Part shown: piece by piece, positions 222-39,800 of the stretch
Position numbering within the stretch: the first letter of the stretch is position 1
Layout of the letters: each line of letters starts with the position of its first letter
Assembly: GCA_051294905.1 (NCBI GenBank)
Contig: CM119372.1
Span: 11,534,001-11,598,000 of the forward strand
Source: Botryllus schlosseri
Lineage: Eukaryota
Length of the DNA stretch: 64,000 nucleotides
Direction: 5' to 3'
The notes under the pieces: model-generated
The model's input: the letters and a program-made list of their open reading frames with translations, nothing else
What the model was told of the DNA's origin: nothing
The model's database searches: none
Position numbers and translations under genes: made by a program

Positions 222-225
222 ATTC

Positions 226-630: not shown

Positions 631-691
631 AGTTATGAGTAATTTCCCAAACAAAGCAGCTGTTACCGGCTAACCGGACACATGTCCGGTC

Positions 692-7905: not shown

Positions 7906-8463
7906 AAAAATGCCTCTAGCACATCTTGCGTGAACGTTCCAAGGGCCAACTTGGGCATTTCTTCGATGAGACGATCGCATAGACCCACCATATTCCGTGA
8001 CGTGAAAATTAGGCCTTCCATTGTGGGTTTTGCCATCATTCGTTTTGGCTCACCACGACTTGGAAGCATATTTCTAAATTACATGATGACCCGAAAATAC
8101 CTCGAATAATAACTATGAGGAACTGACCTTCCAACTCAATAATCGATCCGCAAATTCACCCAGCCATGCAATTCTTTCATCGTCCAGGCTGCATATCGGA
8201 TAACTAATGCGGCATGTGCCGACATTGATTATTGAACCATCTGTTTTAGGTCATAAAATCAAGCCCCTTGTTATATAAGTGAAAATTCGTTACTCATACC
8301 TTTCCATCATCAGAACAAAATCAGATGTACCGGTTGCTCCCATCCCTTTCAAACAATTTCCAACTTTGTGACTCAATACACCCGTAGCCAAACTGACATT
8401 CATCTGGCATGAAAAACGGTCACATTTCAGCCCAGTGAATGATTGCAAGCGCATCATCTATAC

Positions 8464-10157: not shown

Positions 10158-10477
10158 GGCCTAATTTTCACGTCACGGAATATGGTGGGTCTATGCGATC
10201 GTCTCATCGAAGAAATGCCCAAGTTGGCCCTTGGAACGTTCACGCAAGATGTGCTAGAGGCATTTTTTGGAAATTTAGTAAGATACTTAAACGTAATAAG
10301 GCGTTAGATTATTGACTGGGATTGTGATTGCAGAGACAAATGGGGAGAAGACGGACAAATCCGGATATTCCACAGCTAGCGTACGACATCCATCATGTCA
10401 CCCAATCAAAGGCAATGAAAAGATCGGCAAAGCCCTACGATGCATCCCCAATACCCAAGCGAAAGTCGATTGAATAA
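10158..10477 (+). pseudogene. Duplicated last 1.5 exons of the P transposase within the right arm
   Basis: GLIFTSRNMVGL..QDVLEAFFGNL, GT-AG intron 10278-10333, then RQMGRRRTNPDIPQ..SIE*. Confidence 0.88.
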
Positions 10478-18640: not shown

Positions 18641-21600
18641 ATGTTGAGCGGGGATTTTGACTTGCCTGGACAACAAATACAATCATCAACTAACATAAAT
18701 GGACAAACAAGGTACCATACCGATAGCAATGTATATTTATATGCATATTTTCTGCTCAGTTTCAGTTCGAACAATTACGATCTTGAAAGATGAACGATTC
18801 TAAATTAAGGACTGACTTTTAAAAATTGCTGAAAAACTAATAATTCTCATTTCGAATTGTTAGGGTTGGACATTCGGAATTTTCAGCGCCGATGTCAGAG
18901 AGTCAACGTTACAGGACCTTTGAAAACTTCCCGAACAAAGATATCATCTTAAAGTTATACAATTCTGGCTTTTATTATACTGATGTGGAAGACAACACTA
19001 TTTGCCACAGGTTTGTTTGGTGCCTGAGAACTTAACAACGATGTATACTGTATCATTTGTTTGGAAATTACCACTACAGGGATCTGAGATAGTCCTACTG
19101 ATTTAGTGTCTGACTCATCAGTCGCCTGACTGACTCAGTTACATGCTGATATGTGTTCTGAACCGGAGTCAGTTCATTGAATTGCAAGTCTGTGTTGCTG
19201 TTTTATTACCAGACCATTTGATTACCATGCAGATGCAGCGTCAGCATATCGACGTGGCAAGATGATGATGATCCAGGAATGTTTCATGAAATCGGTTGTC
19301 CTTACAACACTGGGGCAGTAAAATCAAAAATTTTACCAGTACCATCCATTATTGATGAACCAATCGAGGACACTGAAGGAACAGTAAGTTATCACAAAGT
19401 ATTAAATATGTGATCTGATTAATTGTGTTGCCCGTTTGCAGGCTCCACTCGTGCCAACCATACTGGAACCGGCGCAAAGTGAGTGCAAAGTGCTTCTTAA
19501 CTTGTTACTTGATAATCACAGATCTATATCCGGAATTTTAGGTGCGGAGTCTGCCGGCATGGCTTCCGCTAATCGCGTGAGTAAGAGTTCTTTCTGCTGT
19601 ATGCTTCAGCCATGTTTGAGGCCGAGTTCTGTTCAATGTGGTACATAATTCGGAGTTGATATGATGAACAGTGAACACTTCAAACAACGAGCAACACTGT
19701 TATCTTTCTGGTGTGAGGGCATCGGAGTCAAAGCCTGGTGTTTGAACGTTTATTTCACTAGTGGGTCGGAACCAAAGCTGTGAATCTTGATTTGAAGTAA
19801 TCCCAATTTTATTGATAGGAGTCGTGAAGGGCAGGGAAAAATTGAGTACCTGACTGATTCGATTTTAAGTTGATTATCAAGCCTTGCAACAGCTGTGACT
19901 GAAGTCCCATAAAGATTTTGCAAGATTGTGCAATGTACACGTACAGCCCGTGATGTCGGCAGAAGTGGATTTTGTGCTGGTCTGAAGCTTTCAGAGTTGA
20001 TATGATTGAAATTGTTGGTATGAGAATTCTTTCCATTTGAATGGAGCCTTATATTATGCTGGGAGTTCTGTCAAATGATAAATCGTTTTGAGTAATTTGC
20101 ATGTACTTTTTTCCTCCAGCCTTACGCAGTGGATTCGCGATTCCCGTTTGGCCCGATATACGTGCAGAGTCACGCCGCTATGATGAAAGCTATCAACCCA
20201 CGCAAGGAGGAAGATCGTAGGTTAGCTTCATGACAAACAGGATAATATTGCAGCTCTTTGGAAATTACTACCGTGTTGTCCTGATCTGTAGATACACATT
20301 CACCTTCAACGACGCTTGGAAGCGGAACACCAACGATGTTTTGCCGTACAAAGAGCTTGCCGCAAATGGATTTTTCTATTTGGGCAATCTGAAGCGGACG
20401 CAATGCTTTTCTTGTCTTGAAGTCATCGGACATTGGTATCGTAGCGACGTGAAATGCATCCATAAGATTCACGGGGAAAACTCGGAACATTGCAGGTTCG
20501 TCGAAAAATCCACTCTTGTCGTGTTCATTTCTTGTCACTGGTGCCAGTAAAAATTGGGCTTTTGCCATGATGTATCATCTCAGTGCATAACAGAACTGGT
20601 TTCATAGAACTGGTTAGGACTTTGGTTTTAGTGAGAGACGAGGAAATGTGACCACGAGTGTTGGTAGCATGCTCCGTTAGGCTGTATGAGTTTGGACCAA
20701 GGTTGTAGAGTCCGGAGTTTCGTTGGATTTTCTATTGATGGATTCTGGAGTGGGAGTCACAGAAACCTTTGAACACCAGTTAGAATCGGGGTTTGTGGAA
20801 ACACCTTGTGGCTGGATTCCGGGGTAGCTAAAACGCTCCGATTCCAATTTCAACTACCTTAAAATCGAACCAAATATTCTAAAATGTTACTAAAAAGTGC
20901 AGTTGCAATTATGGTAGTTCGAGTCGTGTAGGTGTTTCACGTGTGCAAACTTTCACAGCTTAATTTCTTTCTGCGAGCACATTTTTTTAAATTCGGAAAA
21001 TAGATGAAAATAACCCGATAATTGATAATAAGTAAAATGCAATAAACGTTCCTCAGTAGATTTAAAGGGATGTCGGAGTTTTGTGAAGAAAATATTAAGG
21101 GTCGGTGTGTTTCAAGTTCCCAGAGTAGGTATATTGATAATGTCTGGAGTCTGTGGTAAAGTGAACCGACTCCACAGCACTGGTTCGTATGCTTACTCTT
21201 ACTGCGACTACCAAACATGAAATTTCGTGCAGAATGGCACGAGGTCAAGACCCAACGAACGTGCCATCTCGAATTCACCATTCTTCCGATAACGACGTCG
21301 GAACGTCGTCATCACAGCATCGTACTCTCGACAACTCGAATTTATTGCCGAGAACATTGCTGACTCCGGCTCGAACTGATTTCGACTTGACCAACACGCC
21401 GCACGAACACAATTCCATACAATTGTCAGTAAATTCTGTCGAAGTATCAACGAGCGCCTCAGAAAAGGAGCAAGAACAGGACGATCGTCGACTGTTTTCA
21501 AACTCATCTGCGGGCTCGCTACAAATATCGCCGTATCCCGGCGCTGGTCCTGAAACAAACTACTTGCCGCACACGGCCCGCGGGCGACTTGCTAGCTCCG

Positions 21601-24600
21601 GCGAAAAGCTACCGGTTCAGGTTGCTGATGAGTCATCTGAGCCACACTACTCGTTTGAAAATACTGCGCCGTCGCGCAGTAGCTCGCAATATGTTGGACC
21701 AGCGCGTCCGTATCAAGGGGAGGAGGACAGACCGCAAAGCGCTACTGTAATACGTCAAGACACGGAGGAAGGCGTCCGGCACATGGAAACGGAGATTGTG
21801 GAGTCTCCGTTTCAGTGCGATGCGCCCCAATACCCTGAGATGCGTGATATAGACGCTAGACGGGAGAGTTTCGCAGCCTGGTGGACGAACAGTGATGTCT
21901 CGAACACGGAGGATATGGCACATGCCGGTTTCTATTGTTTCGGTGAGTTTTGGGCAGAGGCATTCAAAGTCTGTGCTCATCGTATATTTCTGCTCCAGTA
22001 CAAGTAGAAGTAGTGATTTCCGAGTAAGAACAAAAGGTAGTAGGTGTTCCAGGTATACTTTTGGCTAAATTATGGAAAGCAGTGAAATAGATTGCTATTC
22101 AAGTACAAGTGCAAGATGTAGAGATTTCCATAAGTATTCTAGGCCTAGTTTTGCCTTAAGCACTGAAAACTGAAGTACTCAAGTACGAGTGCAGGTAGTG
22201 GTTTCTGATTATGATCCGCTTGAAGAAGTAATAGCAAGCACTTCAAAGTACTTTTAACCAACCAACTCCGGTTTTTGGCTGCGATTTTTCCACACCTTGA
22301 AACTTCCTCAAGACTCTTATCACATTTTCAGATTGCAATAGCACAAAGTGCTGGTACTGCGGAGCCGTCAAACGCGGATGGCGGCCCGGCGACGACCCGT
22401 GGGAAGTTCACGCCGAGCTGTTTCCACAGTGCGTGCCCGGATCGCGTTACGGTTCCTGCGCGTTTCGAGTTCATGCTTTTTATTGTTTCGACAGCTGCGA
22501 ATATCTACTGAGCAAGAAAGGCGTCGAATTTGTCGAGGACGTCCGCAGCAGAATGCCGCCGTCGCCGCCGGTTTCGTTCTTACCGCCGGCTACGCCTTCA
22601 CCACCCCACTCGCCTATCTACAGAGTCCCTTCTCCGAACATGTCGTTTGGATCGTTTGACGAATCGCCGTATTCGTCTCTGGAGACTTACGGGGTAAGGG
22701 TTAGCGCTCGATTTGCGTGCCATTTGCTGTCGCGGTTGTTTCGAATTTACGACCGCAGTGCCGCGAGTGTCCGTGTCTGTGCGTGGTCGGAAAGCAGATG
22801 CGTCGTCCAATGTAGCCAGCTAGGTGCATTTGCCAGTGAAGGCAGGCGTTCGAAGTACACAAGACAATATATCACATTGTTACCTTATCACTAAAAGCTT
22901 GTCGATTGACTCTCATCAGCCAAGTTGGCCGGCCCAAGAAACCATCGTTAGTACTCAGAAGGAGTAACGGTAAACTCCACTCAAGTAGAAGTAGCTGTTC
23001 CCAAGTACGTAAAAAGTAAGTATTCTAGAACTAGTTTGCCTAGATAACTGAAACAGTAAAAATCGAGTCCACTTGCTTCAAAAACTAGAAGTAATTTGAA
23101 TAGTAAAACCATGCAAGTCAACGGTAAAGTAGGGAAAAGGCAATACGAGTCGCGTGTCAGTAAAGTTGTTTGAGTACTCCGTTACGGACCATCTCTGTCG
23201 CATATCTCCCAGTACCATGGCGGAGCTGCTCAGCCAGTGGCGGTTATCGACCCACGGGAAGTTATGGAGAAAAGGAAAAGATTACTGGAATCCTCCCTCG
23301 ACTCTGAGTTGACTATGGCGGCTATGGAAATGGGCTTCGAACTGCCGATGATAAAAAGGTCAGTGTCTAAGAGCGTCACGGTACTGAAAGATCTATCGTG
23401 ATGATCCGTCTCGACCGCAGGGTCCTGAAGAGTAAGATACGGCGTACGGACATCACCTATCCCAATCCCACAGCTTTACTGGACGATTTGCTGAACCCGC
23501 CAGCGGATTTGGACCCTGACTCGGACGACGAGGACGGCGATCCTGTCGGGTATGTATACTATGAATGAGTGAATTGTCAGCAGCCGAAGTAGTTCGATGC
23601 GCAAACTTTATTGCACTTTCAGAAACGTAGCGGGTGCTTCTGCGGCGTCCGAAGTCGAGACGCAGGTAAGTCGCTAATTTCCCGGTCGTCGACGTGTGTT
23701 GCTAGTTGTGGTAAGCGTGCGCTTGCAAGATACATGTGATTTCGGATTGTAGTGTCGCGCAACGTATTGAAATGCTGGAAAAACTCACAAGCAAGGAGGC
23801 AATGGCTCAAATGTTGTGATTCGTGGCGGAAATACCCTTTCGCATGCTGAACACACCTCGGTTTAAGCATTAGTGTGTTTGCTGTTCAATGTGCTCGTTA
23901 CGGCTGCTCAAAAAAACTTTTGGTTCTGATTTCACTGGCTATGTGATAAAATTGTTAGGCTGGCTAAAACAACGCTGCTCACCAAATTTAACTCCATTCC
24001 AACCAGTAGAAGCGAGGTTCTTGCAGTTGAAAGTTTTAAATTTACTATTTACTGGCGTTCACTGCTGAAGAGAGCCAGTCGAAAGCTTCCAGTGGAATAA
24101 ATTTAACAATATGAACGTATTGTTTGCTGCAATAAATTTACTATATAAAAAAAATTCAAATTTTCTGCCGACCACATAAAATTGTTAGGCTGTCAGTAGA
24201 GACGATGCTCACAAAATTTGGCTCAATTCCAACCAGTAGAAGCGAAGTTACTGCAGTAGAAAAATTTCTAATTCCATGATTTTATAATGAATAATTAAAA
24301 AGTTAGCCACCGTAAATACTATTTTACTCGAATCCAAATTGTTCTACTGTAATAAGTTCGCTTCTACGGGTTGCAATTGAGCCAAATTTAGTTTGCATCG
24401 TCTCTACCAACAGCCTGACAATTTTATGGGGTCGGCAGAAAATTTGAATTTCTTTCATTTATTTTTTAGATAATAAATTCAATACTTTCTACTGCAAGAG
24501 CCTCGCTTGTAATGGTTGGAATTGAGCCAAATTTGGTGTGCAGGGTTGTTTTAGCCAACCCAACAATTTTATCACGTAGCCTGTGAAATCTGAAGAAGTT

Positions 24601-25100
24601 TATTTTGAACAGCCCTAGTGTTCATACTACTGCAAAGTCACCGAAATGTGACTGGTGCGGATTGAAATTCAGGTCGAAGGGAAACTTTTTAAATACTGTT
24701 ATGAAGCCCCGGCTCGATTATGACTGCGTGAAACAACAATGGCATGAGATCTCGTGACATTTTAGAGGGTAAAAGGCGCTTTTCGCATGAGGCTTCCGTT
24801 TATAGCCCTGTCGTCGGTCAGCCCTGGGTTGGAGATTCTATGCCTTTTGTGTTGCAGGCAAGCGGACAGAACGCGCCGAGAATGGACATCGAACTGCCGT
24901 CTGACCCGCAAGAGATGACGGAAAAGTTGCGGGAAATCGAGAATGAAAAACGCTGCAAAGTCTGTCTCGATCGCGACGCGGTCGTTCTGTTCATTCCGTG
25001 CAAACATCTTTGCACGTGCGTTGACTGTGCTCAGGCGTTGAGAACTTGTCCGTTGTGTCGGAAGCGGATTCAAAAGTCCATGAAAACGTATTCTACTTGA
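18641..25100 (+). CDS. IAP: Inhibitor of apoptosis protein (3 BIR + UBA + C-terminal RING; XIAP/DIAP2-like architecture), 14 coding exons, about 770 aa
   Basis: Phase-consistent GT-AG exons: 18641-18711, 18864-19010, 19233-19383, 19442-19478, 19542-19576, 20120-20220, 20292-20495, 21233-21942, 22332-22428, 22495-22693, 23213-23358, 23421-23549, 23623-23665, 24858-25100 (2313 nt incl. stop). BIR1 RYRTF..SGFYY..CHRC-x16-H; BIR2 EEDRRYTF..LAANGFFY..CFSC..HGENSEHC; BIR3 RRESF..MAHAGFY..CWYC-x16-H-x6-C; UBA AMEMGF..LLDDLL; RING CKVCLD..FIPCKHLCTCVDCA..CPLCR..TYST*. The start exon and small linker exons are the least certain. Confidence 0.93.
22862..22925 (-). ncRNA. Degenerate minimal hammerhead ribozyme motif (GAAA changed to GACA)
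   Basis: Reverse strand CTGATGA-G-AGTCAAT-C-GACA-AGCT-TT-TAGTGATAAGGTAACAATGTGA, homologous to the 24058 and 36838 copies. Confidence 0.6.
23899..24617. mobile_element. Foldback-like hAT MITE in IAP intron 13, arms built of tandem subrepeats
   Basis: TACGGCTGCTCAAAA...TTTTGAACAGCCCTA; nearly the whole element is an inverted repeat; TSD GTGCTCGT/GTGTTCAT. Confidence 0.82.
24049..24132 (+). ncRNA. 84-bp insertion carrying a minimal type I hammerhead motif (likely Penelope-like pLTR end)
   Basis: TTCACTG-CTGAAGA-G-AGCCAGT-C-GAAA-GCT-TC-CAGTGGA followed by AATAAA; 12-bp direct repeat TAAATTTACTAT (24037-24048, 24133-24144); absent from the mirror arm of the host MITE. Confidence 0.75.
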
Positions 25101-25178
25101 TATGACGATTCGTACCTACTCGAAGGGCTACTTGTTGGTGTTCGCCGCGCATTGCAGCGGCGCGGAAATGTCTGAAAT

Positions 25179-25215
25179 TATAGATAACTAACCTACGGTA
25201 GGTTAGTTATATAAA
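25179..25215. mobile_element. 37-bp remnant of two P-element tips (probable excision footprint)
   Basis: TATAGATAACTAACCTAC-G-GTAGGTTAGTTATATAAA matches the first and last 18 bp of 6536-11448 (two mismatches on the right); flanks CTGAAAT/GTGAAAT. Confidence 0.85.
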
Positions 25216-25556
25216 GTGAAATCAAATATGCTGCGAACGATATGCAACTTCACCTCTATATTTTATCCTCAAAATTTTTTACGCTCATTACTTATGTTAG
25301 ATCACGGTAAACTGGTTCATATGATGGGTGTGGTTGGATTTCCTCAGTAGTGCGTTCAATTCACAGTATGAGGTCGATAGGGACGGGGTGGGTTCGAGTT
25401 CAATGCAGGTGTCATGAATGACAGGTCTATGTAACAAAATTTTAGTAGGAAGGTTCGCCGAAACCTGAATTATATCCGGTGCGGAAAGGCAAGAAATTGA
25501 GATTGGGGAGAATGTAAGTTTCGTGACGTCGCGTGAAGTAACCAACCAATATGACG

Positions 25557-26521
25557 CAGTGTTGGGATGACTCGAGTCATGACTTGACTCGAGTCAGACT
25601 CGAGTCACCTTTTCCGTATGACTTGACTTGACTCGAGTCACTTTGCTAAAATGACTTGACTTGACTCGGCGTATCAGAAATGTGGATTGACTCGTGACTC
25701 GGAGCAAAATTCACGAGTCAATTTCAAGTCATCAATTATTAATCGGTGTCGATAAAAATCACTTTATCTTGCATATGTTCGGATTGTTCGCGAAACGCTG
25801 ATGCAAGCCGTGAGAGGACTTATAATTCAATGATGGTACGTTTTACTGATCCTCCATTGTTCTCTCACAAATAAATTTACCGCAAACGAACTGATCGAAG
25901 CTTACAGCTTACGCTATCGATAACAAATATAGTAAAGTAATTTACAGCAAAATGTCTATTTCTGTTCTATGTTCTTATCTAACAAAACCTCTTGCTTTAT
26001 AGAAATTGAATTCGAATATAGTTTATATAGTCGATCCTCAACCTTTGGCGCAGGCTCGAATTGTATCATATCAATTTTTAAATGGGGATAATGTATTGCA
26101 TCTTATCAATTCCTTTCTCTATTCTCTATTTTGGCTGGTAACTGTGAACTGAGACTATGCAATTACTTACGTAGTTAGCAGTTCTTCGTATATGTTAGCG
26201 ATGCAGCGCCTTCTTCCGTGTGTATTTATCTCTATATTCGTTCATAGCTTCAAAATCAATGACCACTCAATCTGTATTTCAGACAGCTAGCAAACTGCAA
26301 TGACGTAATCATGCCTCATACTTAGAAAAGGCTACTTGACTTGAATTGTGACTTGACTCGTGACTTGACTTGACTTGACTCGACTTGACTCGAGTCACCT
26401 CCAAAAATCGAGTGACTTGACTTGACTCGAGTCACCTTCGAAAATCGATTGACTTGACTTGACTCGAGTCAAAATGTGCAATGACTCGTGACTCGAAGGT
26501 AGTGACTTGATCCCAACACTG
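25557..26521. mobile_element. hAT MITE family C (CAGTGTTGGGAT TIR, GACTT/GACTC subrepeats)
   Basis: Perfect TSD ATATGACG. Confidence 0.93.
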
Positions 26522-26676
26522 ATATGACGTCGTATACATGAGGCATCGAGGGCGACAACACAGTGAGATCAAAACGAAAAGTCACTAAAGATTGTAGTTA
26601 CGATTTCATCCTTCATTTCAAATTCCTTGCTTTGGGTTAGCTTCACTACGCGTGGAGTATGGTGAAGATATGAGGA

Positions 26677-27090
26677 AAGGGTTGTAACCAAGTCAATCGA
26701 GTCATTTTCAACTCGTCTCCACCGCGTCCACGTCACAGCGTTGAGAGTAATAGTGTCTACCGCTCATTATCGAGTTTAAGTTCAGTTCAACACGCTCTTT
26801 CGGAGCTCTTGGTGACATCGAAGGCCTACACCCTACATTCGTAGTATAGGCCTACTCATTTTCTGACTCTTAACATGTTTGTTTATTTTTACAGATTGAA
26901 GACAGTTTCTGAGACCATTTCTCAAGTACCGTCCCTGATACACGAGGCTTGCCTTAATTAATATAGAATCACCCAAGTCAAGCGCAATGACTCGAGTACA
27001 AGACGAGTCAATACACAAAGTGACTCATGTCGGGTCGAGCAGAGTCAATATTCATTTTTTGACAAAATGACTCGAGTCATTACAACCCCG
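26677..27090. mobile_element. hAT MITE family C2 (AGGGTTGTAA TIR)
   Basis: AGGGTTGTAACCAAGTC...GAGTCATTACAACCCC; sibling at 60757-61319. Confidence 0.7.
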
Positions 27091-27255
27091 GTAATACCAT
27101 CATGGTATAAAGTCGAGACATGTCCCCACTGCCGCAGTTCGTAATGACTTATTGCTGTGCGAGATGTTGTCTGGCATTCATGGAGTCTCGTCATCAAAGT
27201 TAATTTTACAATTGGGCGATATACGGAGTCGCAATATAGCTTTTACAACAGCTTA

Positions 27256-28631
27256 GGGGAGACCGGGGACAATTGTAACACTTTTCGTATTTTCCAACAT
27301 TACGTGTTTTTCTCATGGAAATTTCACTTCCAAAGTTTTTTATAAAGAAGCCAACAACTCGATAGTTGATATGAAAACTAAATTGGAACTCAATCAACAA
27401 TCAATCATAGAAATTATGGGTCGCAAAAATCGCTGCTCAAATGTTACAATCGCCCCGTACCCAGGGGCAATTGTACCACCCTTGCGGGGCAATTGTAACA
27501 GTATTATTTATAACTAAACACAAACTAAATGAACAACGAAAACGGAAGCACTAATTGTAATATTGCATGAAACTAAAGGCAGAGACGTTTGAACGCTTCT
27601 AGGCTACGCCCCATCGCATTTATGGCATCTGAATGCAATAGCACCCTTCGTGTCTTGTTCAAGATTAAAGTGTACAAGAGACACATTCATTCCATCATCT
27701 CCCTACACATATTCGGCCTCTTTTACCAAGGTTCTGCTGTTCAGCGGGCATAATGAGTTGGTCATTCGGTCACCTGCGAAGGTGCGAAACCGACCTGGCT
27801 AACATATCTTGGTTGAATGGGCCGATGATAGTATAGTAAAACGAGGACGCAACATTGTGTGGCGTCAAAGCTATAATGACATTTATCTGTGCTGTAGAAA
27901 ATTAACATAAATTGTTCACATCAAATATCAAAATGTAAGTGGGCCATGATCAAAGTCAGAGGACGAGAATTAAGCCATGACTATTGAAGTTCGACACACC
28001 AAAAGTCGATCAATATGAGAAAGGGTGGTTGAATCACGAAAATAACCGAACCGTCAGATTCACATCACCACTATTGTATGGCCGTTTCGACAGATGATAA
28101 TGTTAGAATTGGTATCGCAAGGCAGTATCTGTTCTGGTGAACTTCTGGCTGTTGCAAGATTATTCTGCAGTAGATGAATGGTAATACCAACATATGAACA
28201 AAGACATTCAGAATTGATAACATTATGTAACGGGGCAAAAGTAACAGAGTGTTACGATTGCCCCTGACACGCTCAACCATGATTAGTGTCTCAGTATGGT
28301 ACCTTCCCGGCGATGCAAGTCCTATTCTTTCTATCACCACGGTGGACTATAGTAACATTGTTCCAGCTACACATATTACGTTGAAACTACTTGAGGTACT
28401 ATTCGTCTAGACAAATTATTCCAGACCAGAAAAACTTTACTCAAGGGTCAAAAATTTCGTTTTTTGCAAATTATTCCGGAGTTTCGCATCGTAGCTCAAC
28501 GTAACTCCAGGTATAATAGGAGAGATAACTACTGCATGCACACTTGAAATATCAAGCTGATTTCTCCATCCTACTAGCGGTGAGGACGATTGTTACATTT
28601 GCCCCTAGTTACATTTGTCCCCGGTCTCCCC
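27256..28631. mobile_element. TA-flanked pogo-like non-autonomous element
   Basis: TA|GGGGAGACCGGGGACAA...TTGTCCCCGGTCTCCCC|TA; internal GGGGCAATTGTAAC repeats; possible decayed Cys-rich coding fragment near 27600-27720 on minus. Confidence 0.85.
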
Positions 28632-28866
28632 TACATTCCAAATATATTTGAATCTCGAAGGTCGACAGTACCGGCGAAAGACCTTACTTATACAATCTGC
28701 AGTCAAGGATCACGTCAATACAACGCTTATAACTACTTTCTGGCTACAATTCACCGCAAAGCAATAAATTGCTCTGCGTTTCTAATGTTGCTTTACTACG
28801 CGGCTTCCGCGATAGCATGGTCGTTGAATTCGCACAATATTGTTGCTCTTCACTACGTTTCAACTA

Positions 28867-29242
28867 TAGGGTTACCATACGTCCTCCTTTTTCCGGTTTT
28901 CGAAAATGTCCTCCGAGGACGCCTAAATGTCCTCATTTTTGAGATTTTGTCCTCTTTTTTGATAATTTTGGTTCAATATAGTGCATAAATTCGACTGAGA
29001 TACAGTAAATCAGCACTGAAGTAACACTCCTGCGCTTATTTAGGGATGGGAGCTGGGCCGGAAAGTTTACCTTGTTTTTAGTCAACCATAACCACAAAGT
29101 GGTGAAAAATCTACCATTTTTTCCGAATTTTACTCCACAATTCTAAGTCTTAAAATTTTGAAAAAGTGTCCCCCTTTTCCCGATTTTCTGAAAATTTTGA
29201 AAAAGTGTCCCCCTTTTCCCGATCCCAAATATGGTAACCCTA
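28867..29242. mobile_element. hAT MITE family A
   Basis: TAGGGTTACCATA TIRs; TSD GTTTCAAC (extra TA on the left); internal 39-bp tandem duplication. Confidence 0.88.
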
Positions 29243-29369
29243 GTTTCAACAGCTTGCAAAAACCATTCAAAACTAAAATGGTTCGGAAGAAGGTGCAAAT
29301 GGAATAAAATATATCACGTTTCGATTTTGGTATGGAAGAGAGGTTTTGTGATCCACCAAATATTCCAAT

Positions 29370-29472
29370 AGGTCCGTCACGGAGGGGACGAGTAACAAGG
29401 CATTTATAGGTCATATCGTCACCTCCAGTCAAGTTTGTTTAACGAATCAATAAAGTCTGTCTGTCTGTCTGT
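29370..29472 (+). mobile_element. Probable LINE 3' end with (TCTG)n tail
   Basis: AATAAA immediately followed by (GTCT)4. Confidence 0.5.
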
Positions 29473-29560
29473 AAGTTCATGTTTTAGCTTAATCCAACGT
29501 ATATAAGATTAGGCCAATCACTCGCCATGAAACTGCGCAGACCCTGTGTCGTATCAATAA

Positions 29561-30744
29561 CAGTGTTAGGATCAAGTCACTGCCTTCGAGTCACGAGTCA
29601 TTACAGATTTTGACTCGAGTCAAGTCAAGTCAATCGATTTTTGAAGGTGACTTGAGTCAAGTCGAGTCACTCAATTTTTGGAGGTGACTCGAGTCAAGTC
29701 GAGTCAAGTCAAGTCACGAGTCAAGTCACAATTCAAGTCAAATTGAATTTTCGACCTATGAGTGATGATTCAAAGTCGCAACATTTTGCCAGCTGTGTGA
29801 AAGACCGATAAATTAGCAATTTATCTTGAAACAAATAACGAATATAAAGTTACATTTACATGCAAAAAGGCGTTGTATCGCACACACCACGTAGAACTTA
29901 TAATAAAATACGTGAGTAACTGTATAGTTACCGGCTGCAGTCTGTTATTATCAGCCTAAATCAATGATATAAATAGCCAAAATATAGGATCGAATACGAA
30001 ACCTCGGGAAGTTTAAACAAATTGATATGGTTACAATACACTACCCATATACACGTCCGTGAGAATATAAACGCATAAACTATGTTCGATTTAAATCATA
30101 CAAGAGGGTTGGTAAAGGTGAGCACAGCACAATGCAAGCGCTGAGCCATTTAAGAAACAGAGATACGTTGCTATTAATCTACTACTACTACAGTAACAAT
30201 TGAATAGCATATTCATATTGAAATGAACCCCAATATTTTCGGCTGACACTCGTCAGGGGTAATCGTCAGCAACTAGTAGAGAACTGGAAAGAACATTGTA
30301 TATCAACAATCGTATCACAAAATGTGACGTCACCAGCATGGAATTTAGAATGAGAGAGCGTTAAATGTACTATTTTAGGTTGGTGCATTTTGATGAAAGT
30401 CGACTCCATGGCTACGGTGACGTAAGCTGTGATCATTACGTTTGCGGCCAATTTATTTGTGATGTAACAAGCGAGGACCATTGAAACGTACAATAAGTGA
30501 ATGACTGGTTGTTCTCACAAGTGCTACCGACGTATCGCGAATAATCTTTGTACACATGAATTCATACAGTGACTTAGTCGACACCATTTACTTATTGATG
30601 ACTTGAAATTGACTCGTAAATTTTGCTCCGAGTCACGAGTCAATCCACATTTTTGAAGCGCCGAGTCAAGTCAAGTCATTTTTGCAAAGTGACTCGAGTC
30701 AAGTCAAGTCATACGAAAAAGTTACTCGAGTCATCCCAACACTG
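29561..30744. mobile_element. hAT MITE family C with an internal Penelope-like insert
   Basis: Perfect TSD ATCAATAA. Confidence 0.92.
30195..30410 (-). mobile_element. Penelope-like 3' fragment with hammerhead motif
   Basis: Reverse strand: MESTFIKMHQPK (resembles the GIY-YIG C-terminus), then ACCC-CTGACGA-G-TGTCAGC-C-GAAA-ATAT-TG-GGGT at about 30227-30260; absent from other family C copies. Confidence 0.6.
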
Positions 30745-30816
30745 ATCAATAATACTATCAGCGACCATTTTATGTATAGCCTACTATAGGCGTAGATTCA
30801 AAGGTGAAAGCCACAC

Positions 30817-33800
30817 CTTATTCTTCTTCATCATTATCTCTTTTCCATAAACATCATTTACAGTTATCGACTGGACGACGGTATACACTGTTTCGTGCGG
30901 TTGTAATTTTGCAACGTAATTCGCGGGCATAAATCCTGTTTTCCCGTTGCATTGACCCTGAATAACATGGAACGAAAATCAATCGAAGATCTTGGGTTCA
31001 AATTAAACCACGCGACTTGTTCGTCTGTAGACTGTTGTGTGCTGTGTAGGCCTAATGCAGTTTTATAGATATTTTAACTAAAAGTCTCCAATTCATATCA
31101 GTCCACCCAACATTGAAATCGCTCACAAAGCCGTGTTCACTGCTCATAGCAAGGAAGCGTAGCGACACGATTAGAGATGACTAATATGGTAACTCTTGAA
31201 ACCACCTCTGAAATCCTGCTCCCCGGTCAGTGGCCAATGGCCATCATATAAATGCTTAGCATCCGGATTATATGGAATAAGTGAGCTATGTAGGTGGCAT
31301 GCTTGACATAAAATTGGTTGTTAGAGACAAGATTTCAAATTATTGGAGAAATAAGAACTTTATTATAGATTCCGATTCCGTTGTTGTTGATGGCATTTGT
31401 ATTGGGCACGAGCAGCCGTCTTCATAATTTGCGGAGTAGCGTACTACGTAATGAAACACTGGCGCGTTGTGCATATAAAGACAATGACTCAAAATTCATG
31501 ACTCTGAAATTCAGATCCATATTATGCCCAATCAAATCCAAGAAAATGTAATCTATTTCTGACTGCGATAAGTTGGGCGCAACAAACGAACTGTTCTATT
31601 CGATTACTTGGCGATCATTCAATATCATCGCCAAATTACATACACATTTGGTAGAAAGATAAGACCAGTCACTATCATCCAATAAATATGGCGACTTAGT
31701 TTAATGTATAAACAACGTACCACCCACCAACTTTCATCTTTATCTTTGGTGACGCGAATTTTATCCCCGGGTCTGCTCGGATTAAAAAAAATCGATTCGT
31801 TTGGAGCTTGTTTACACTGTGGTTAACAGTGGCTCGTGAACTGGTTCGAACACTTACTTCAAGGTTAGGTCATCCTTTTCTGTTCCCTTGAACTTGTAAA
31901 GGGCGACATAAGTATTCGGGTGGTTTGGAGAAGCTTGCTGAAATGAGTAATACGGAAAAAATTCAGAAGAGATCGTCGAACCTCTACAAAGTTATGGTTC
32001 GTGCGATCACGAACTATTATGAAAGGTTCTTTTTGAACACCAACGTGAACACATCACATCACGTCACATCATGTCATAGGCATAATGCTAATTCAAACAC
32101 AACTAAATATTTTACCTTCCTGTCTATGCATGAGACGGTTGCCGAAAAAGTTATAGTCAATTAGTCATAAATCAGAGTAGCCTGGTGCCTGTGGCATATG
32201 GGGCAAAGTGTTATATCGTGATCTTTACACCAACTTATCTGTGAAAGCCTAAAATATGTGGGGTTATCGATCTACAAGGGTCCTTTATTGGTACCCATAA
32301 TATGGGATGGTGTGAACGTGATATTCACGTTCGCGCTCTGTGTCTTAACCTCACAAATTTAGAGGTTCACGTTCTCAAACGAACCTTGGCAGGTTCTTCA
32401 CTGTGAACATTTTTCATATATTACAATTTTCACTTCATTATAACATCTTTGGTTGAAATTTATTGCATTTCAACTGCGGGCCACTCTATGCATGGCGCTG
32501 ACAGCATAAAAAAAATCAACACTAGACGAGCATGCTGCACCTCGAAAATCTCAAAAATTTTACTTGCTTTATTGCAAAAGTTGGCTCGAAATAACCAGCC
32601 TTCTGTTTGTGAATACTTACCGTCTCTCTGCTGTGAGCTTGACCCGCAATGACACAACATCAAGAGCGAAATGCAATACATGTAGTCAACGAATGATGCT
32701 TATTGAACCTATATCGTTGTCGCTTGCTATCGTTGTCTAATGTAAAAAATCCAGCAGGTGTACGGTGACTTCAAATGTTTATTGTATCATAAAAATAAAA
32801 TCCGTGCGGATGTGGTGTCAGCTATGCTGCTGTATCACTTGTTAACGTGGTAATATCGGCAACAAGTATAGAAACCTGTTTTACATTCTGCTCAATATCA
32901 ACGTTGCAATACTCAGACGACGAATACATTATCCGGTATGACCTAGACCAGGGGTTATCAACCTTTGTTTGGTTGCGGCCCATTTTCCGGCTTGAAAATG
33001 TTATGTGGGCCCCTCTTATCCTACAGTGATAGCTCTGTTCAATGCATGGTAAGCGCTGGCGCCGATATGCCGAGTTCTCTAAAATATGCGCATTATTATA
33101 CATATTCAAATGGTGTTGCAGTGTAGACCTTTAAGGACATGAAATCACTACATGCGCGACGAAAATTCTCAAGTCGAACAAACCTCCTCCAACTAACGAA
33201 CAGCGAAATATATTTGGGCCTTCGACCTCCCACTAATTTGGGGTTTGGGGTGTGGAAGTTACGGCCTTAGTAGATCACGTAACGCTTGAGTACATCATGG
33301 CCGTCCAATGGTCTACTCACATCGCAACCCAGCTATATATTCCCCGCATCCACTGTGTGGTTGGGGTTTTAGTTCCACTAAGGTGGGGGATAACATAACC
33401 ATTCTGGACCAGCTTCAGACAATTCTTTGGTGAATGGGATGGGCCTTACACAGAGATGTGAAGAAATAATTTTTTATTATGTCAACTTTACAATGTACAA
33501 TTGTACAGTATATCTTGTGCTCACTGCAGTTGCGCTGTCAGAACATTCAATCCAATGATACAATCAATTCAAGTCACTCTAACATTATGTAAAGGTACAA
33601 TGACTTCAACGCCGACTGCAATGATTAATGTGCTGCGATAAATGTCTCATCGATCAGAGCTGGATGAAATGTAGCCTACGTATAATTCGATAATATGATT
33701 ATATTTTTGAGCGTTTGACATAAAAATATAACTAAAATTTTACTAATTCTACAATTTTCCAAATAGTTCTGTGGTCCATATCAAAATGCCCTGCAATTGG

Positions 33801-36800
33801 CCCACAGTTTGAGAACCGCTGGCCTAGACCGTTCAGGGGTAAGCTTAAATTCCCTTGCAAGTCCTCGTCAAAATTGTTGGCAAAGCGACGGAATATTTTG
33901 ATTTTACGGGATTATTATACCGTTTGATTGCCCCAGTTGATAGATTTGCCGACGTTGAAAACGTCAATTTGTGCTTCAGCATAATAGTGACCCGAGTCGT
34001 CGCTGTATAGGCTATCGTGTACACTGTACAGTAATATAGGCCATCACTTCAATGTAGGGTTGAAATTACCATAATGACGTCTCGTGACGTCATGAGGTTC
34101 ACGTTCACGTTCACACAGAACCTCTGAGAGGTTCACACCATCACTAGTACCCAGTATTAGTGATCTTCGGAGCCCAGTAACAACATTGCACCACTGCATC
34201 CAAATATAAAAAAATCGAGTTACTGTGGGGAGATAAAGGCTCATGATTTTGACCTAGCCCGATTTTGGACCAACACGTTGCTGAGGTAAAAGTCAGTTCA
34301 AGCGTGAAAAGCGCGACATTTAACAAAAACTTTCGGGAATCACTATAATCTTTCACGATCTTGGTTTTCTGTTGCACTTCTTGTCTCAGCATCACCTCGA
34401 TGTAGCGAGTGTTGGGAAGTTTGAATTCAGGAAATTTTAACCAATATTCAGATTTCGGAGAAATTCTGATATTTCTCCAAAAACGTTCACATGGTAGGAC
34501 CTACACAGTACACATTCGGCTATACGGCATTTCATTCTCAATATCAAGTTGTTAGTCGTGTTTCAGCACAAGAGGATTTTTTAACGGTAAGACCCACAGG
34601 AATAGACTACTTCAATCTTCCATTGCGATCCCATCATGTTTCTTGACAAAACGATCGATCAGACCGCTTATGATTTCGTCTTGTTCGTTACATGTCTTTA
34701 TAGATTTATATATACATTCTCACAGTAATGAGAGAATTCGATATGGTAAATCAATAGTATATTGACCTATTTTGAAGTCAGCATGCTCAGCTATGTATCA
34801 TTCAATACATTAGTTGTTGCTGCTAAAACTGCTACGGACTCCAAAATGTCACAAAACGAGAGGAATTCTGACACAAGGATAAAGTTACCTTTCTCGTATT
34901 CGGTGATCCAAAACCTGCGTCTAAAAGTTGTAATAAAATCCACTTAGATAGGTGTGTAATCGTAACCAATGTTTCAAACTGCGTTTATTCGCAATTTCAT
35001 GTTTCATTGCATGTGAATAAAGATACAGCTGAATACTCGATGCAAGAAACGACCACACTTCAAATATGAGGCTATAGAAATCACACAATCATCGGTAGTT
35101 TACGGCATCAAATGACTACATTACATATATTTTATAAATTTTGAACAACACAGCGTAGGCCTTCATAGGTCCGCGTATAATCACTAGTAAGTCATGCTAT
35201 CAGGCCAGGATCTTCTGGAAATGAGAATATGGTAGAGGTAAAATTGAGTTGGCCATATTGTAATGATAACCTTTATAGCCGCCAGGTCTCTTATTTATTC
35301 CAGTAGTCAGATGTACTCGCAATTTTATGCAACATCACATTATCAACAAATCTATGCGAATATTACCGGAAATTCCCTCTTCGTGGCCACATTTCGCAAT
35401 TGGCACATCCGAAGATCCAGTAAGTCCGTGTTCGGCGCCTGATAGCTTGTCCGTCATACTTATGGCTGTGAATAAAAAATATGACGGGCTATTGCAAAGT
35501 ACACTAACCGGTGATTTAATTTTAAAGTAGGTGGCAGATGGCCAATAAACACGTCATGCTTCATTCCTACCTTCTCCCAGTCTCAGCACCTTCAATTCTT
35601 GCAACACTTTATAATCATGGTGAACTTCACCTGTGAAGATGCAGCAAGTGCCCTCGTGATACATTGATTAACAATGGTTGCAATAGCCTACGAGTTACTT
35701 TCCAAATCAACACTTAATTGTCGAAAATTAACATGCTGTGACAATTACATTATGCCTGCGACATGATCAGGGCATGGTAGGGTATGGTATGGAACGACAA
35801 TTTTCCATGCTCCATACTTGCCTTACTCTCTCAATACCATATAATTGCAATTTTCCATACCATACCAACATTGTTCCATACCATACTTGATACATATTCC
35901 ATACTTTCAAATACTTCAATATCATAAGTATAGTACCTTCTCTAGCACCTATATTATTGATATTTCGGATGTCATTTTTGCTTAAACTAGCCATGATGCG
36001 AATCTAATTCCTGGTGATAGTTTTACAGAGTCTGTTTTGGTGAGGTGCCGTGTACGTCTACTCTGCAGATTCCGCGAGCAAAATGAGATAGTCAGCAGAT
36101 TGCTATATTGGACAGTCCATAAAAGGGACGGGTAACATACGGCCCGCGACGAGATTTTGTCCGGCTCGCGGACAGTTTCCCGTCTTGCTTGATAATGTGG
36201 CCCGCGGTCCCAGTCTGCCGAGATTCCCCACTATTTGCCTAAACGTCCAATTTTAGTGACTGTATTATATAGGTGTGCGCACTGTGCAGCGTGCGAGAGT
36301 GGAGCTTACGCGTAAGTTCGTCGAAGCGAGAAGACTTTCATTATCGGCATTTACGATGTACTCAACCCCAATGAATTGAAATCTTGGTAAATTTTGGGTA
36401 CTGGGCTTATCAAACGCTTTAAAATCCTAATTAAGGATTGCACCGTGGTTTAGTTGATCAAAGAGAAGCAGACACGGCGGCGCTTGTATGACAATGCTGT
36501 TCTCAAATCCACATTGTATTGTCATTATCGGCGAGAAATGGCTCTGAAGTGACATATTTCTGTCGATAAGATACATTCATTAAATGACGCGAAACAATAA
36601 CTTCATATTGTTAATTTATTCGCTAAAAGCTTTTCGACAGACCCTCATCAGTAGCGAAACGTCAGTGATAGGGTGAATCAAATTCGAAAATGTAAGAACT
36701 ATTTTGTCTGTATGACGTAATAATAACAAAAACAAACAACTAGTAGACGGACTAGTTGTTTGTTTTTTGTTATTATTACGTCATACAGACAAAATAGTTC

Positions 36801-39800
36801 TTACATTTTCGAATTTGATTCACCCTATCACTGACGTTTCGCTACTGATGAGGGTCAGTCGAAAAGCTTTCAGCGAATAAATTAACAATATGAAGTTATT
36901 GTTTCGCGTTATTCTGAAGTTCTGTACCACAAATCACTTAATCATTAAATACGATTTATTCCTTGTATATATGCGCGAATAATGTATCCATTCAGCAATC
37001 CGGCCCGCCAAGTACTTAATTTTTCTATATCCGGCACTCTGACCGGAGAAGTTGCCCGCCCCTGCTCCATAAGAATATCATCACATTTCCGGTACATTGG
37101 CATGAGGCGCATGCAAGTTTGAAGTAAATACTCGCAAAATAATTTATAACATAGGCGCACCCATAAAATGTCCCAGCTACAGGCGATCAATACTGCAGCG
37201 ATCTGCGTGATTATAAGTACAGTATTTGGTTGAGGTTAGCGTGGCGAGAATTTCAAACTATATCTACCCCACTCCCTGATCTATAATCCTGATGTGAGAT
37301 CGTTTGAAATATGACCAATAAGATATCTCGCTATGTAAATAGTATAAATGTGCGGACAATATTTCAGAAGAAATGTAATTATCAATCACATTGAGCAATT
37401 AGTACGTTGCATCATGATTGCTTGTAAGCGGTCGTCACTCAAGGAATGAGGTAATTGGAGTAGCCCACATTACCAATTATTGCGTCACACGATAGACTTT
37501 GCTCGGAGACGTCGTGTCTAGACTCAATAGAATATCTGATCAACATTACTGTTGTCATGATTACGTCACAAAATCATGTCATTCCAAGTGCCCCTAAAAC
37601 TGTTGCACAAACGTGTATTTGTTCCTACACAGCATTAAATAGTTCGCGTTCACAGTTCACACATAACAAAAGCGATCGTATTCCGTGAACAGCGATCAAC
37701 GTACGGTTCATGAAGCTTGCACAGATCACAATAAAATGTATAAAACACCTAAGTATGGAAGTATTGAAATGTCGTTCCATACCATAGATTAAAATCTCCC
37801 GTTCCATACCATACTTGCATTGCTCCATATTCCATACCAAAATATCGATCCACACCATACCATACTTCCATACCATACCATACCATGCCCTGGACATGAT
37901 CCATGGATCGCAATGACAAGCTCACTAAATTTAATTAACTGACCTTCCGTCGGCGACAATTGAGATTTTCCTTCGGATTTTCGTGAGAAGCTGGCCATTC
38001 CAAACTGAAAAAGTCGCGTTCGTTAGATAGATTGCGAACTACCGGTATATCGCTCAAGCATTCCCATTAGATCTCTTCGGTAGATCACGAGAACATTACA
38101 GCAGACCACGCAGTCAGGTTAATCATAGGCTCTTAGAGGGCAAATAGGCGAAACGACGATATCGACATTAATAATGGCCAAGATTAGGGCGAAGTACATC
38201 CCAAACTAACAGCACAAATGTGTGATAATTCGAAATGAGCTACGTGCTGACCTTCCAAGTCAGCAGATGCGAAAGTGTCGACTAATCGAATAATTTAAAG
38301 GTGGGACGGGAATGTTGACCTTTTCAGTCGGCAGGGTTGTAGGTCACGGTGACATCTGCTTCCAAAAGGTAGTTAGCAATACGCCAATATTGAGCACCTC
38401 TGAACAATTATTGCCGAAGGAGCATGATGAGCGAGTAAAATGTAATTTAAACGAAATGAAGAATCAGATGAAACAATGCTAGCGGTAGCCTACTCTATAG
38501 TACAGTGGTCGGGAACCTTTTGTCCGAAGAGCCATATTGACCCCATATTTTCCATCTTAACTTCCAAAGAGCCATACGTTTTAATCAATACGTCACAATA
38601 TAAAAATTGTGACGTCATCGTAGCGCAAATTCGTCGATTTTCGTCAGTTATACGAGATCGTAGGTTCGTCTTGACCAGGGCCGGCCAACCCGTGGCCCGC
38701 GAGAAGGTTTTGAGTGGCCCGCGAGATAATTTCCGAAATTTCTAATGTTATCAAAAATGGATTGCACAGATTATGAACTTGTGAGGCCAACCGAAATTTG
38801 GTTTAGTCTGGCCGCAACACTTGATATGTTATGACTAAAATATCAGTTCCGACGCATTGGCAGATCCATGAGTCAGTCACATATTGATAGATCTTCGTAT
38901 ACTACAATAAACAGAATGGTGGGCGATAGATTTATCAAAAGTAAACATTTTCTACACGCTTCGCGCAACATGTTGTCACTCGATTTCTTGATTTTAATAT
39001 TGTTGCCCCTTTGTGAAAATCTAAGAACTCCTAATGTATCAGATTGAATCTAAATATAATCGCGATTACGAGACAGAGTGTCGTTTAACATATGCGGCTT
39101 TGCGTTTGCACTCGCAGAAAGACTGTCGACTATGAAACCTAGGCACAAAATGATTGACGCATGTTGGTCGAAACTTTTGATATCGAAATGTCCAGACGCC
39201 GATAGCCCAGTCCTTGCAAACTGAGCCCAGCGATATACAGCAGGCCCGCAATCAATGTTCCCTCTAATTTTTGCCGAGTCTGCGCACACTCACCAATACA
39301 CTGCGCAGACCCTTGGACAACAGTGCGTAACGGTGGAAAAAAAGATCATCACTTCGGATTTTTTGTGCGCAACTTCGATTTTCTGTGCGCAGAGACTGTG
39401 CCAGCACTGCGCATTTGCGCACGTGCGCAGCTTAGAGGGAACATTGCCCAAAATATAGTCAGGTGAAAATATTATTGACCTGTGAACTAGGAAAAATATT
39501 CGCGCCTCGCGCGGCTAGTGGCCCGCGCAACAGTTCGACAATCGAATGTGGCCCTTTGGCTGAAAAGGTTGGCCAGCCCTGGTCTTGACGATATGACCTT
39601 ACCTGTCTACTAGATTTTGAACATTTTTACTACGAAAATCACGCAACTTACCTATTTATTGTTCGAAAATATAGCATGAAAGGGGAGGTAAGGCATTGGT
39701 GAGGCACAGCCGGGATTAGCATAGCGCAATTCATCGTAAATATCACAGAATTTATAATATTGATAACACTGGTTTTCACATAGTTTTTGGCATGCAAAGT

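What the first reader, a model, noticed from the sequence alone, without database searches (positions are those of the whole stretch)
22862..36913. Dispersed family of minimal hammerhead motifs with covarying stems (5 copies in 14 kb)
Seen: copies at 22862-22925(-), 24058-24096(+), about 30227-30260(-), 36619-36658(-) and 36838-36877(+) share CTGANGA-G-N7-C-GA(A/C)A-short palindrome-T-N, and most share a downstream CAATATGA-like tail. Stem I changes while keeping pairing (TTCGCTA/TAGCGAA, TTCACTG/CAGTGGA, ACCC/GGGT), and the stem III palindrome switches between AGCT and ATAT. Known: Penelope-like retroelements carry minimal type I hammerheads with a 1-bp stem II and palindromic stem III, proposed to cleave as dimers. 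Inference: several Penelope-like subfamilies, or a non-autonomous ribozyme retroposon family, have colonised this locus.
Basis: partly seen in the sequence, partly recalled or inferred. Interest (0 to 1): 0.75.

Follow-up and report, generated by a model that had tools for sequence, protein, structure and literature searches.

The report
Penelope retroelement ends with pseudoknotted hammerheads
The five hammerhead-ribozyme motifs lie in four short leftover insertions, at least one of them and likely all broken-off ends of Penelope-type jumping genes, and they share a predicted RNA knot that replaces one ribozyme stem; self-cutting is untested.

Summary
The motifs are real, but they are four insertions, not five, and every copy has a defect. 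The pair at 36.6/36.8 kb is one head-to-head insertion with a 9-bp target duplication and a 31-nt tail on one side. The 24.0-kb copy has a 12-bp duplication, and its empty site lies in the window. These are 5'-truncated terminal-repeat fragments of abundant Penelope-like families, a known class with known hammerheads. Papers I could read show Penelope hammerheads with longer helix II and no pseudoknot; two key papers were unavailable. Cleavage is untested, and RNA reads show no pile-up of ends. This scan already noted the same pseudoknotted motif at seven other places in this genome.

The parts
22856..22923 (-). c1: fragment truncated just 5' of the hammerhead core (C3 at 22919); no stem I 5' strand, no pseudoknot strand, GACA for GAAA; predicted inactive. 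Ends approximate.
   Evidence: profile hit E 1.7e-4; pairwise alignment to c5 runs through the start-codon region
24037..24048 (+). left target-site duplication of c2 (12 bp, repeated at 24133-24144)
   Evidence: 1 of 3000 random 30-nt pairs shares 12 nt or more
24049..24132 (+). c2: 84-nt insertion; pseudoknot strand 24051-24056, stem I 24058-24064 with 24090-24096, core from 24065, C17 at 24089, ATG at 24111, ends at nucleotide +22 of the reading frame
24133..24144 (+). right target-site duplication of c2
23899..24617 (.). host fold-back repeat; its right arm lacks c2 and so shows the empty site
   Evidence: I16, I17; alignment of the two arms
30196..30380 (-). c3: fragment of a very abundant sister family; pseudoknot strand 30270-30265, core from 30256, G at position 17 (30231; most family reads have C), palindrome AATATT, ATG at 30216, ends at +21. 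5' end uncertain (30380 to about 30412).
36577..36585 (+). left target-site duplication of the c4/c5 unit (9 bp, repeated at 36942-36950; these are its only two occurrences on the + strand of the window)
   Evidence: 9 of 3000 random 30-nt pairs share 9 nt or more
36586..36744 (-). c4: inverted 5'-truncated copy; core from 36651, ATG at 36606, ends at +21, no tail
36751..36941 (+). c5: direct copy; core from 36845, position 17 at 36870, ATG at 36890, 17 codons identical in translation to the start of P0122, ends at +52; 36911-36941 is the 31-nt tail absent from c4
   Evidence: (joints to 36941-36943)
36942..36950 (+). right target-site duplication of the c4/c5 unit
18844..25100 (+). host inhibitor-of-apoptosis gene (BIR domains and RING); c1 lies antisense and c2 sense in its introns (intron limits read by eye)
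   Evidence: Pfam hits; sequence

Best explanation
The five motifs are four short insertions: the c4/c5 unit is a 5'-truncated end of a Penelope-like retroelement, c1-c3 likely are too, and each family carries a type I hammerhead motif predicted to replace helix II with one G-C pair plus a 6-bp pseudoknot. Shown: motif, target duplications with empty sites (c2, c4/c5), inverted copy, one-sided 31-nt tail, identity of the c5 peptide with a full-length reverse transcriptase protein, and covariation of the pseudoknot. Inferred: the element's endonuclease nicked AT-rich DNA, its reverse transcriptase started at one of two sites about 21 and 52 nt into its own reading frame, and stopped after 80-200 nt, so the hammerhead just upstream is what most copies keep. 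In the parent element the ribozyme would cut 14-21 nt before the start codon, probably only when two copies pair through the palindromic stem III, as in a tandem transcript. The copies here are most likely inert.
For: c5 matches P0122 residues 1-17 exactly (tblastn E 2.7e-12); P0122 has RVT_1 (E 1.6e-9) and a weak C-terminal GIY-YIG hit. 3' ends fall at +21 (c4), +22 (c2), +21 (c3) and +52 (c5). A metagenome family with the same architecture has two 3' boundary clusters about 33 nt apart (21 of 101 distinct copies at positions 26-27, 38 of 101 at 57-60) and a GIY-YIG frame upstream (Pfam E 1.2e-4); two further families show the same endonuclease C-terminal motif upstream by eye. Inverted copy, one-sided tail and opposite-strand hammerhead pairs are described Penelope traits. 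Pseudoknot 6 of 6 pairs in c2, c3, c5 and all three metagenome families, with changes on both sides at all of pairs 1-5 in at least one family; structure count 79% paired against 67% shuffled and 27-49% slid.
Against: No reverse transcriptase or endonuclease coding remnant was detected near the copies (0 such Pfam hits in 133 frames scanned; none for the c3 frame). The candidate endonuclease end in c3 is not significant (profile E 4.7; pairwise E 0.008; no homologue) and lies where family coverage has dropped. c2 and c3 match P0122 at only 4 of 8 and 3 of 7 residues. The GIY-YIG hit of P0122 (E 0.0068, 17.1 bits) is below Pfam's cut-off. I did not see P0122's DNA. The covariation set has 7 sequences, two nearly identical, with two rows partly out of register; a single 6/6 pseudoknot match has a 1-6% chance rate. 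RNA reads show no pile-up of ends at the predicted cut.
Confidence: 0.9

Rival explanations
1. The motifs belong to a non-autonomous, retrozyme-like or SINE-like family: a short ribozyme RNA of fixed length that is transcribed, self-cleaved and re-inserted by a Penelope enzyme acting in trans.
For: c2 begins 2 nt before the pseudoknot strand, so it holds just the complete ribozyme plus the 3' end. Family coverage peaks over the ribozyme. Non-LTR retrozymes are reported as derivatives of Penelope terminal repeats.
Against: No tandem array at any copy. No end lies at the predicted cut. Coverage decays gradually 5' of the core, as for random truncation. 3' ends stop inside the first codons of a frame that exists full-length.
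Confidence: 0.07
2. One copy, c2, has been co-opted by the host as an intronic self-cleaving switch of the inhibitor-of-apoptosis pre-mRNA.
For: c2 is sense in an intron of the gene and keeps the core, a 7-bp stem I, the 6-bp pseudoknot and C17.
Against: It sits inside another repeat with an intact target duplication, lacks one A of the palindrome that 36-79% of family contig depth carries, and has no same-strand partner nearer than 12.8 kb. No conservation in other species was tested.
Confidence: 0.02
3. The hammerhead resemblance is a chance pattern in an ordinary repeat and has no structural meaning.
For: Rfam finds no hammerhead; every copy has a defect; about 11 of the 123 metagenome matches look like chance hits without the family context.
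Against: 0 of 200 simulated windows give a strict hit; the core is invariant while stem I and the pseudoknot change on both sides across six families; the c3 defect at position 17 is private to this copy.
Confidence: 0.01

Closest known systems
Pseudo-LTRs of endonuclease-bearing Penelope-like elements (Craig et al. 2021, PMC8557442, passages; Frangieh et al. 2024, PMC11167929, parts 1-2 of 4)
   Same: 5' truncation, inverted 5'-truncated copy, 30-40-nt tail on one side, AT-rich target with ATT, hammerhead next to the start of the reading frame, two 3' boundaries inside the frame.
   Different: Boundaries are at about +21 and +52 of the frame, against a stem-loop at +111-118 in the anole element; there the frame starts at stem II and the cut is 26 nt downstream of the start codon, here the predicted cut is 14-21 nt upstream of it.
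Minimal hammerheads of metazoan Penelope-like elements (Cervera and de la Pena 2014, PMC4209133, parts 1-2 of 4 and part 2 of 3 of the supplement)
   Same: Type I topology, palindromic helix III, U or C at position 17, dispersed single copies, pairs 100-700 bp apart on opposite strands, predicted dimer requirement.
   Different: Their helix II has 3 or more pairs, usually with an extra base after A9; here it is one G-C pair (at most two) with a 7-nt loop and no extra base. 'Pseudoknot' has 0 occurrences in their main text and in the supplement file searched.
Pseudoknot hammerheads: one-pair stem II example of Perreault et al. 2011 (PMC3088659, passages) and the PK hammerhead of Zhan et al. 2024 (PMC11300833, passages)
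   Same: A single G10.1-C11.1 pair stacked on a 6-bp pseudoknot that takes the place of helix II; both published RNAs cleave fast (over 1.2 and 16 per minute).
   Different: The Perreault construct is a type II metagenome RNA; the Zhan RNA supplies the pseudoknot strand from the loop of an extra hairpin (helix IV) with an A-rich triplex. Here the strand is a plain leader 1-2 nt before stem I, and stem III is a bare palindrome.
Non-LTR retrozymes (Li et al. 2026, 10.64898/2026.07.22.740005, parts 1-2 of 5)
   Same: Non-coding repeats with type I hammerheads related to Penelope terminal repeats.
   Different: Retrozymes are defined by tandem units each with a hammerhead; none of these copies is tandem.

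Membership tests
Endonuclease-bearing Penelope-like element (terminal fragment) | Single frame with reverse transcriptase and C-terminal GIY-YIG endonuclease | tested here: met
   Met through linkage for c4/c5 only: 17/17 identity to the start of P0122 (RVT_1 E 1.6e-9; GIY-YIG E 0.0068, under the cut-off; relative P0072 E 1.4e-4). The domains themselves are not in the window.
Endonuclease-bearing Penelope-like element (terminal fragment) | Same linkage for c1, c2 and c3 | tested here: inconclusive
   Short frame starts at the same place with 3-4 identities; c3 family reads continue in frame into the conserved I-L-K-F-C-T motif (loose end at 30196, translated by eye); c3 endonuclease end not significant.
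Endonuclease-bearing Penelope-like element (terminal fragment) | Terminal repeat holds a hammerhead and the start of the frame | tested here: met
   ATG 40-46 nt after C3 in c2-c5.
Endonuclease-bearing Penelope-like element (terminal fragment) | 5' truncation and adjacent inverted 5'-truncated copy | tested here: met
   c4/c5; opposite-strand joints in other c3-family copies; same arrangement in L078.
Endonuclease-bearing Penelope-like element (terminal fragment) | 30-40-nt tail at one end | tested here: met
   c4 ends at +21, c5 at +52; two boundary clusters in the metagenome family.
Endonuclease-bearing Penelope-like element (terminal fragment) | Insertion at AT-rich sites with target duplication | tested here: met
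   Met in 2 of 4 insertions: 12 bp (c2), 9 bp (c4/c5); no exact duplication of 8 nt or more for c1 or c3.
Penelope/Poseidon clade | No cysteine linker between the two domains; placement in a reverse transcriptase tree | tested here: inconclusive
   No Cx2-5CxxC motif in P0122 or P0072; no tree with named references was built.
Type I hammerhead ribozyme | Core CUGANGA, GAAA, U16.1 and H17, with G10.1-C11.1 and stem I | tested here: met
   Met in c2 and c4, and in c5 apart from the first stem I pair; not met in c1 (GACA, no stem I) or c3 (G17; family reads 78-92% C, 6-14% U)..
Type I hammerhead ribozyme | Site-specific self-cleavage | not testable with these tools
   Needs a bench assay; two RNA runs showed no pile-up of read ends, in libraries not built to show one.
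min-HHR of Cervera and de la Pena 2014 | Helix II of 3 or more pairs, usually with an extra base after A9 | tested here: not met
   One pair (two at most), 7-nt loop, no extra base against their descriptor and alignment.
min-HHR of Cervera and de la Pena 2014 | Absent or palindromic helix III | tested here: met
   AAGCUU in c1, c4, c5; AAUAUU in c3; imperfect in c2.
PK hammerhead (Zhan et al. 2024) | 6-bp pseudoknot on a single G-C pair in place of helix II | tested here: met
   Predicted from pairing and covariation; not probed.
PK hammerhead (Zhan et al. 2024) | Extra hairpin (helix IV) and A-rich triplex linker | tested here: not met
   Only 1-2 nt separate the pseudoknot strand from a 7-bp stem I in c2, c4 and c5, leaving no room for them.
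Non-LTR retrozyme | Head-to-tail tandem units, each with a hammerhead | tested here: not met
   None of the 31 tandem-repeat rows overlaps a copy.

The most novel reading that the evidence does not exclude
A clade of animal Penelope-like elements uses a hybrid hammerhead: a pseudoknot brace like that of fast microbial ribozymes plus a palindromic stem III that closes only between two copies. It would act as a tandem sensor that cuts 3-21 nt before the element's own start codon and so releases a translatable, uncapped message only from competent tandem copies, as ribozymes before mycovirus frames are reported to do.
Probability: 0.2. Interest if true: 0.6.

Novelty: new variant of a known kind. 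Interest (0 to 1): 0.3.

Why it matters
Hammerheads in Penelope terminal repeats are known, and these copies are decayed fragments, so the locus itself is ordinary. The architecture is the part worth testing. Published Penelope hammerheads cleave poorly in vitro and their role is open; the anole ribozyme needs the element's protein and is dispensable for insertion in vitro. A family with a conserved pseudoknot brace, a known full-length protein (P0122) and many natural variants gives a direct way to ask whether a Penelope ribozyme can be fast, whether it needs a dimer, and whether the cut serves translation. Descriptors that need 3 or more pairs in helix II, and Rfam, miss it, so it may be under-counted in animal genomes.

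Tried and rejected
No whole genome was held, so no genome-wide count or alignment. Rfam: no hammerhead hit. A narrower metagenome pattern found 0 matches. The c3 frame 30269-30409 found no homologous protein; its likeness to an endonuclease C-terminus ranked 3rd of 3434 window peptides at E 4.7, so it is not used as evidence. Pfam scans of 12 plus 121 stop-to-stop frames (of 369 frames of 55 aa or more in the window; the 121 lie in 18.8-41.8 kb) found no reverse transcriptase or GIY-YIG. The missing 5' half of c1 was not found within 3 kb. c4 and c5 as dimer partners: rejected, since they are on opposite strands and a transcript through them is predicted to fold into one long hairpin (-259 kcal/mol). 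A conserved hairpin 3' of the ribozyme: folds differ between families, not kept. A degenerate 10-bp duplication at c3 (8 of 10, seen by eye): not relied on. Summed contig depth is not a copy number and is not used as one. No RNA holder was listed by the run search. The strand bias in the single-cell run cannot be assigned without the library layout. A look-up of earlier findings by sequence gave nothing. Papers PMC5785218 and PMC4509812 were not held. The organism was not determined here; 'sea squirt' comes from an earlier unchecked note.
Full report
1. Observation. The window is repeat-rich animal DNA holding an inhibitor-of-apoptosis gene (BIR and RING hits). The five motifs are present, with cores at 22919(-), 24065(+), 30256(-), 36651(-) and 36845(+), here c1-c5. 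My type I hammerhead descriptor found c2 and c4; 0 of 200 simulated windows gave a strict hit and 4 of 200 a loose one. A profile from c2-c5 and three metagenome copies found all five, c1 included, and nothing else under E 1.4. Rfam reported no hammerhead.

2. Four insertions, each damaged. c4 and c5 are the arms of one inverted repeat, 98% complementary, differing at two positions in the ribozyme. c1 starts about 4 nt before the core, so it has no stem I or pseudoknot, and reads GACA. c2 lacks one A of the palindrome; 36-79% of contig depth at that place has the A in the four runs laid. c3 has G at position 17, while reads and contigs of its family have C in 78-92% and U in 6-14%. c4 has one mismatch in the pseudoknot and c5 an A-C at the first stem I pair. 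U at 17 is common in published Penelope hammerheads.

3. Insertion anatomy. c2 is an 84-nt insert between two copies of a 12-bp AT-rich sequence in the left arm of a fold-back repeat, and the right arm lacks it. The c4/c5 unit lies between two copies of a 9-bp sequence (36577, 36942); contigs of related host repeats skip from 36517 or 36555 to 36941-36943. Random 30-nt pairs share 9 nt in 9 of 3000 trials and 12 nt in 1 of 3000. No exact duplication was found for c1 or c3, although contigs and RNA reads skip c3 from about 30183-30197 to 30413-30425. c5 runs 31 nt further 3' than c4. An inverted 5'-truncated copy and a one-sided 30-40-nt tail are described traits of Penelope-like elements (PMC8557442, passages), and hammerhead pairs 100-700 bp apart on opposite strands were reported in PMC4209133.

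4. Link to a Penelope protein. Of 123 matches, 110 are one repeat family, two more are separate families (L037, L095), and the other 11 or so look like chance. The large family has a GIY-YIG frame upstream (L078, Pfam E 1.2e-4); L037 and L095 show the same C-terminal motif by eye. Searching with that endonuclease gave 170 proteins, 120 listed, many with reverse transcriptase domains. The full-length P0072 begins with a peptide whose best match among 127,894 window positions is the c5 frame at 36890 (score 49, next 32). Searching with its N-terminus gave P0122, 850 aa, whose first 17 residues equal the c5 translation exactly. P0122 has RVT_1 at E 1.6e-9 and GIY-YIG at E 0.0068, below the cut-off. 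This N-terminal domain is widespread (209 representatives). I did not see P0122's DNA or learn its organism. For c2 and c3 the frame starts at the same place but matches only 4 of 8 and 3 of 7 residues; 646 contigs and 263 and 1028 RNA reads of the c3 family continue past 30196 with letters that read, in frame and by eye, as the conserved I-L-K-F-C-T motif. Against: no reverse transcriptase or endonuclease remnant was detected in 133 frames scanned, and the candidate endonuclease end in c3 is not significant.

5. Two 3' boundaries. The ends fall at +21 (c4), +22 (c2), +21 (c3) and +52 (c5) of the frame. In the metagenome family 21 of 101 distinct copies end at positions 26-27 after the palindrome and 38 of 101 at 57-60, that is about +22 and +53-56; the rest are spread. 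PMC11167929 (parts 1-2 of 4) showed that a Penelope enzyme cuts AT-rich DNA at ATT on both strands and starts reverse transcription at two internal sites whose spacing is the tail. Both duplications here contain ATT. I infer the same mechanism. Whether the head-to-head pair arose by two primed events or by fold-back copying cannot be told.

6. The ribozyme. Stem II is one G-C pair closing 7 nt. Six of these pair with a leader 14-16 nt before the core: 6 of 6 in c2, c3, c5 and the three metagenome families, 5 of 6 in c4. Among c2, c3 and c5 two pairs change on both sides, and L095 changes four more positions. Each single match has a 1-6% chance rate. On a sequence-only alignment of 7 rows (c1 left out; c2 and L095 partly out of register) the structure is 79% paired against 67% for shuffles (0 of 500 reach it) and 27-49% when slid; pairs with a change on both sides, 7, were reached by 51 of 500 shuffles. 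The shuffles ignore relatedness and I derived the structure from these sequences, so this supports but does not prove it. L037 does not form stem I in register (1 of 7). Stem III is a bare palindrome with self-duplex energies of -4.3 (AAGCUU) and -0.2 kcal/mol (AAUAUU), so a dimer is likely needed (precedent). No same-strand partner lies within 6 kb of any copy, and a transcript through c4/c5 would form one long hairpin. The copies here are probably inert.

7. Abundance and RNA. On the 311-nt c3 stretch 27,329 contigs of run X1 were laid, 7,646 only in part, with coverage falling gradually 5' of the core: many dispersed, variably truncated copies. RNA runs X23 and X21 gave 3,136 of 12.9 million and 10,332 of 22.2 million reads; 99% and 68% run on into other sequence, which fits read-through of dispersed copies. 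No pile-up of ends was seen; these libraries were not built to show one. Four insertions within 14 of 64 kb has P about 0.04 after the fact.

8. What is known. PMC4209133 (parts 1-2 of 4; supplement file 2 searched and part 2 of 3 read; file 1 not searched) describes Penelope hammerheads with palindromic helix III, low activity and a helix II of 3 or more pairs. PMC3088659 (passages) shows a one-pair stem II with a 6-bp pseudoknot cleaving fast in a metagenome RNA. PMC11300833 (passages) gives the structure of a pseudoknot hammerhead with an extra helix IV that is absent here. PMC13725137 (passages) reports short-helix-II hammerheads before mycovirus frames, slow in vitro but cleaved in vivo, one 7 nt before a start codon. 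I also saw passages of PMC6765202, PMC6155905 and PMC10085705 and parts 1-2 of 5 of the retrozyme preprint. Five searches listed no paper that, in what I read, joins this pseudoknot to Penelope elements; but Lunse et al. 2017 and Weinberg et al. 2015 were not held, and they or their supplements may describe it. Earlier notes of this scan report the same motif at seven other places in this genome. I had noted the pseudoknot and the start codon before reading them; they gave me the lead to PMC11300833 and the label 'sea squirt', which I did not check.

9. Verdict. Real, explained and mostly known: terminal fragments of Penelope-like elements (confidence 0.9). The pseudoknot-braced, palindrome-ended hammerhead is a variant that I could not find in the papers available, and it is cheap to test. 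New variant of a known kind; interest 0.3.

Noticed in passing
window 18844-25100 (+): Inhibitor-of-apoptosis gene with three BIR hits and a RING finger; a stretch near 23214-23358 looks by eye like its UBA exon.
   Followed up: partly
window 31628-31822 and 30787-30978 (-): Weak SH3 hits (E 2.6e-4 and 0.03): possibly exons of a second gene on the minus strand near c3.
   Followed up: no
window 23899-24617: Fold-back element built from two nested pairs of related inverted arms; it hosts c2.
   Followed up: partly
window 6527-8015 and 10158-11457: Long inverted repeat, 97-100% complementary in several blocks, about 2 kb between the inner arms.
   Followed up: no
window 225-633: Three tandem 135-bp units, open in several frames, no Pfam hit for the + frame.
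   Followed up: partly
window 44588-44989 (-): Frame whose middle resembles, from recall, the C-terminal end of a LINE reverse transcriptase protein; no Pfam hit.
   Followed up: no
window 27699-27843 (-): Two weak tblastn matches (E 0.56 each) to the C-terminal endonuclease motifs of P0072, in the right order; possibly a very old Penelope remnant, possibly chance.
   Followed up: no
L078:542-1652: Head-to-head pair in the metagenome family with arms of unequal length; both copies end at the first 3' boundary, without a tail.
   Followed up: partly
L001:57-63: In the metagenome family the start codon lies inside the 3' strand of stem I, 3 nt after the predicted cut.
   Followed up: partly
window 30266-30276 and 36744-36754 (-): An 11-nt word is shared between the c3 leader and the centre of the c4/c5 palindrome; may be chance.
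   Followed up: no
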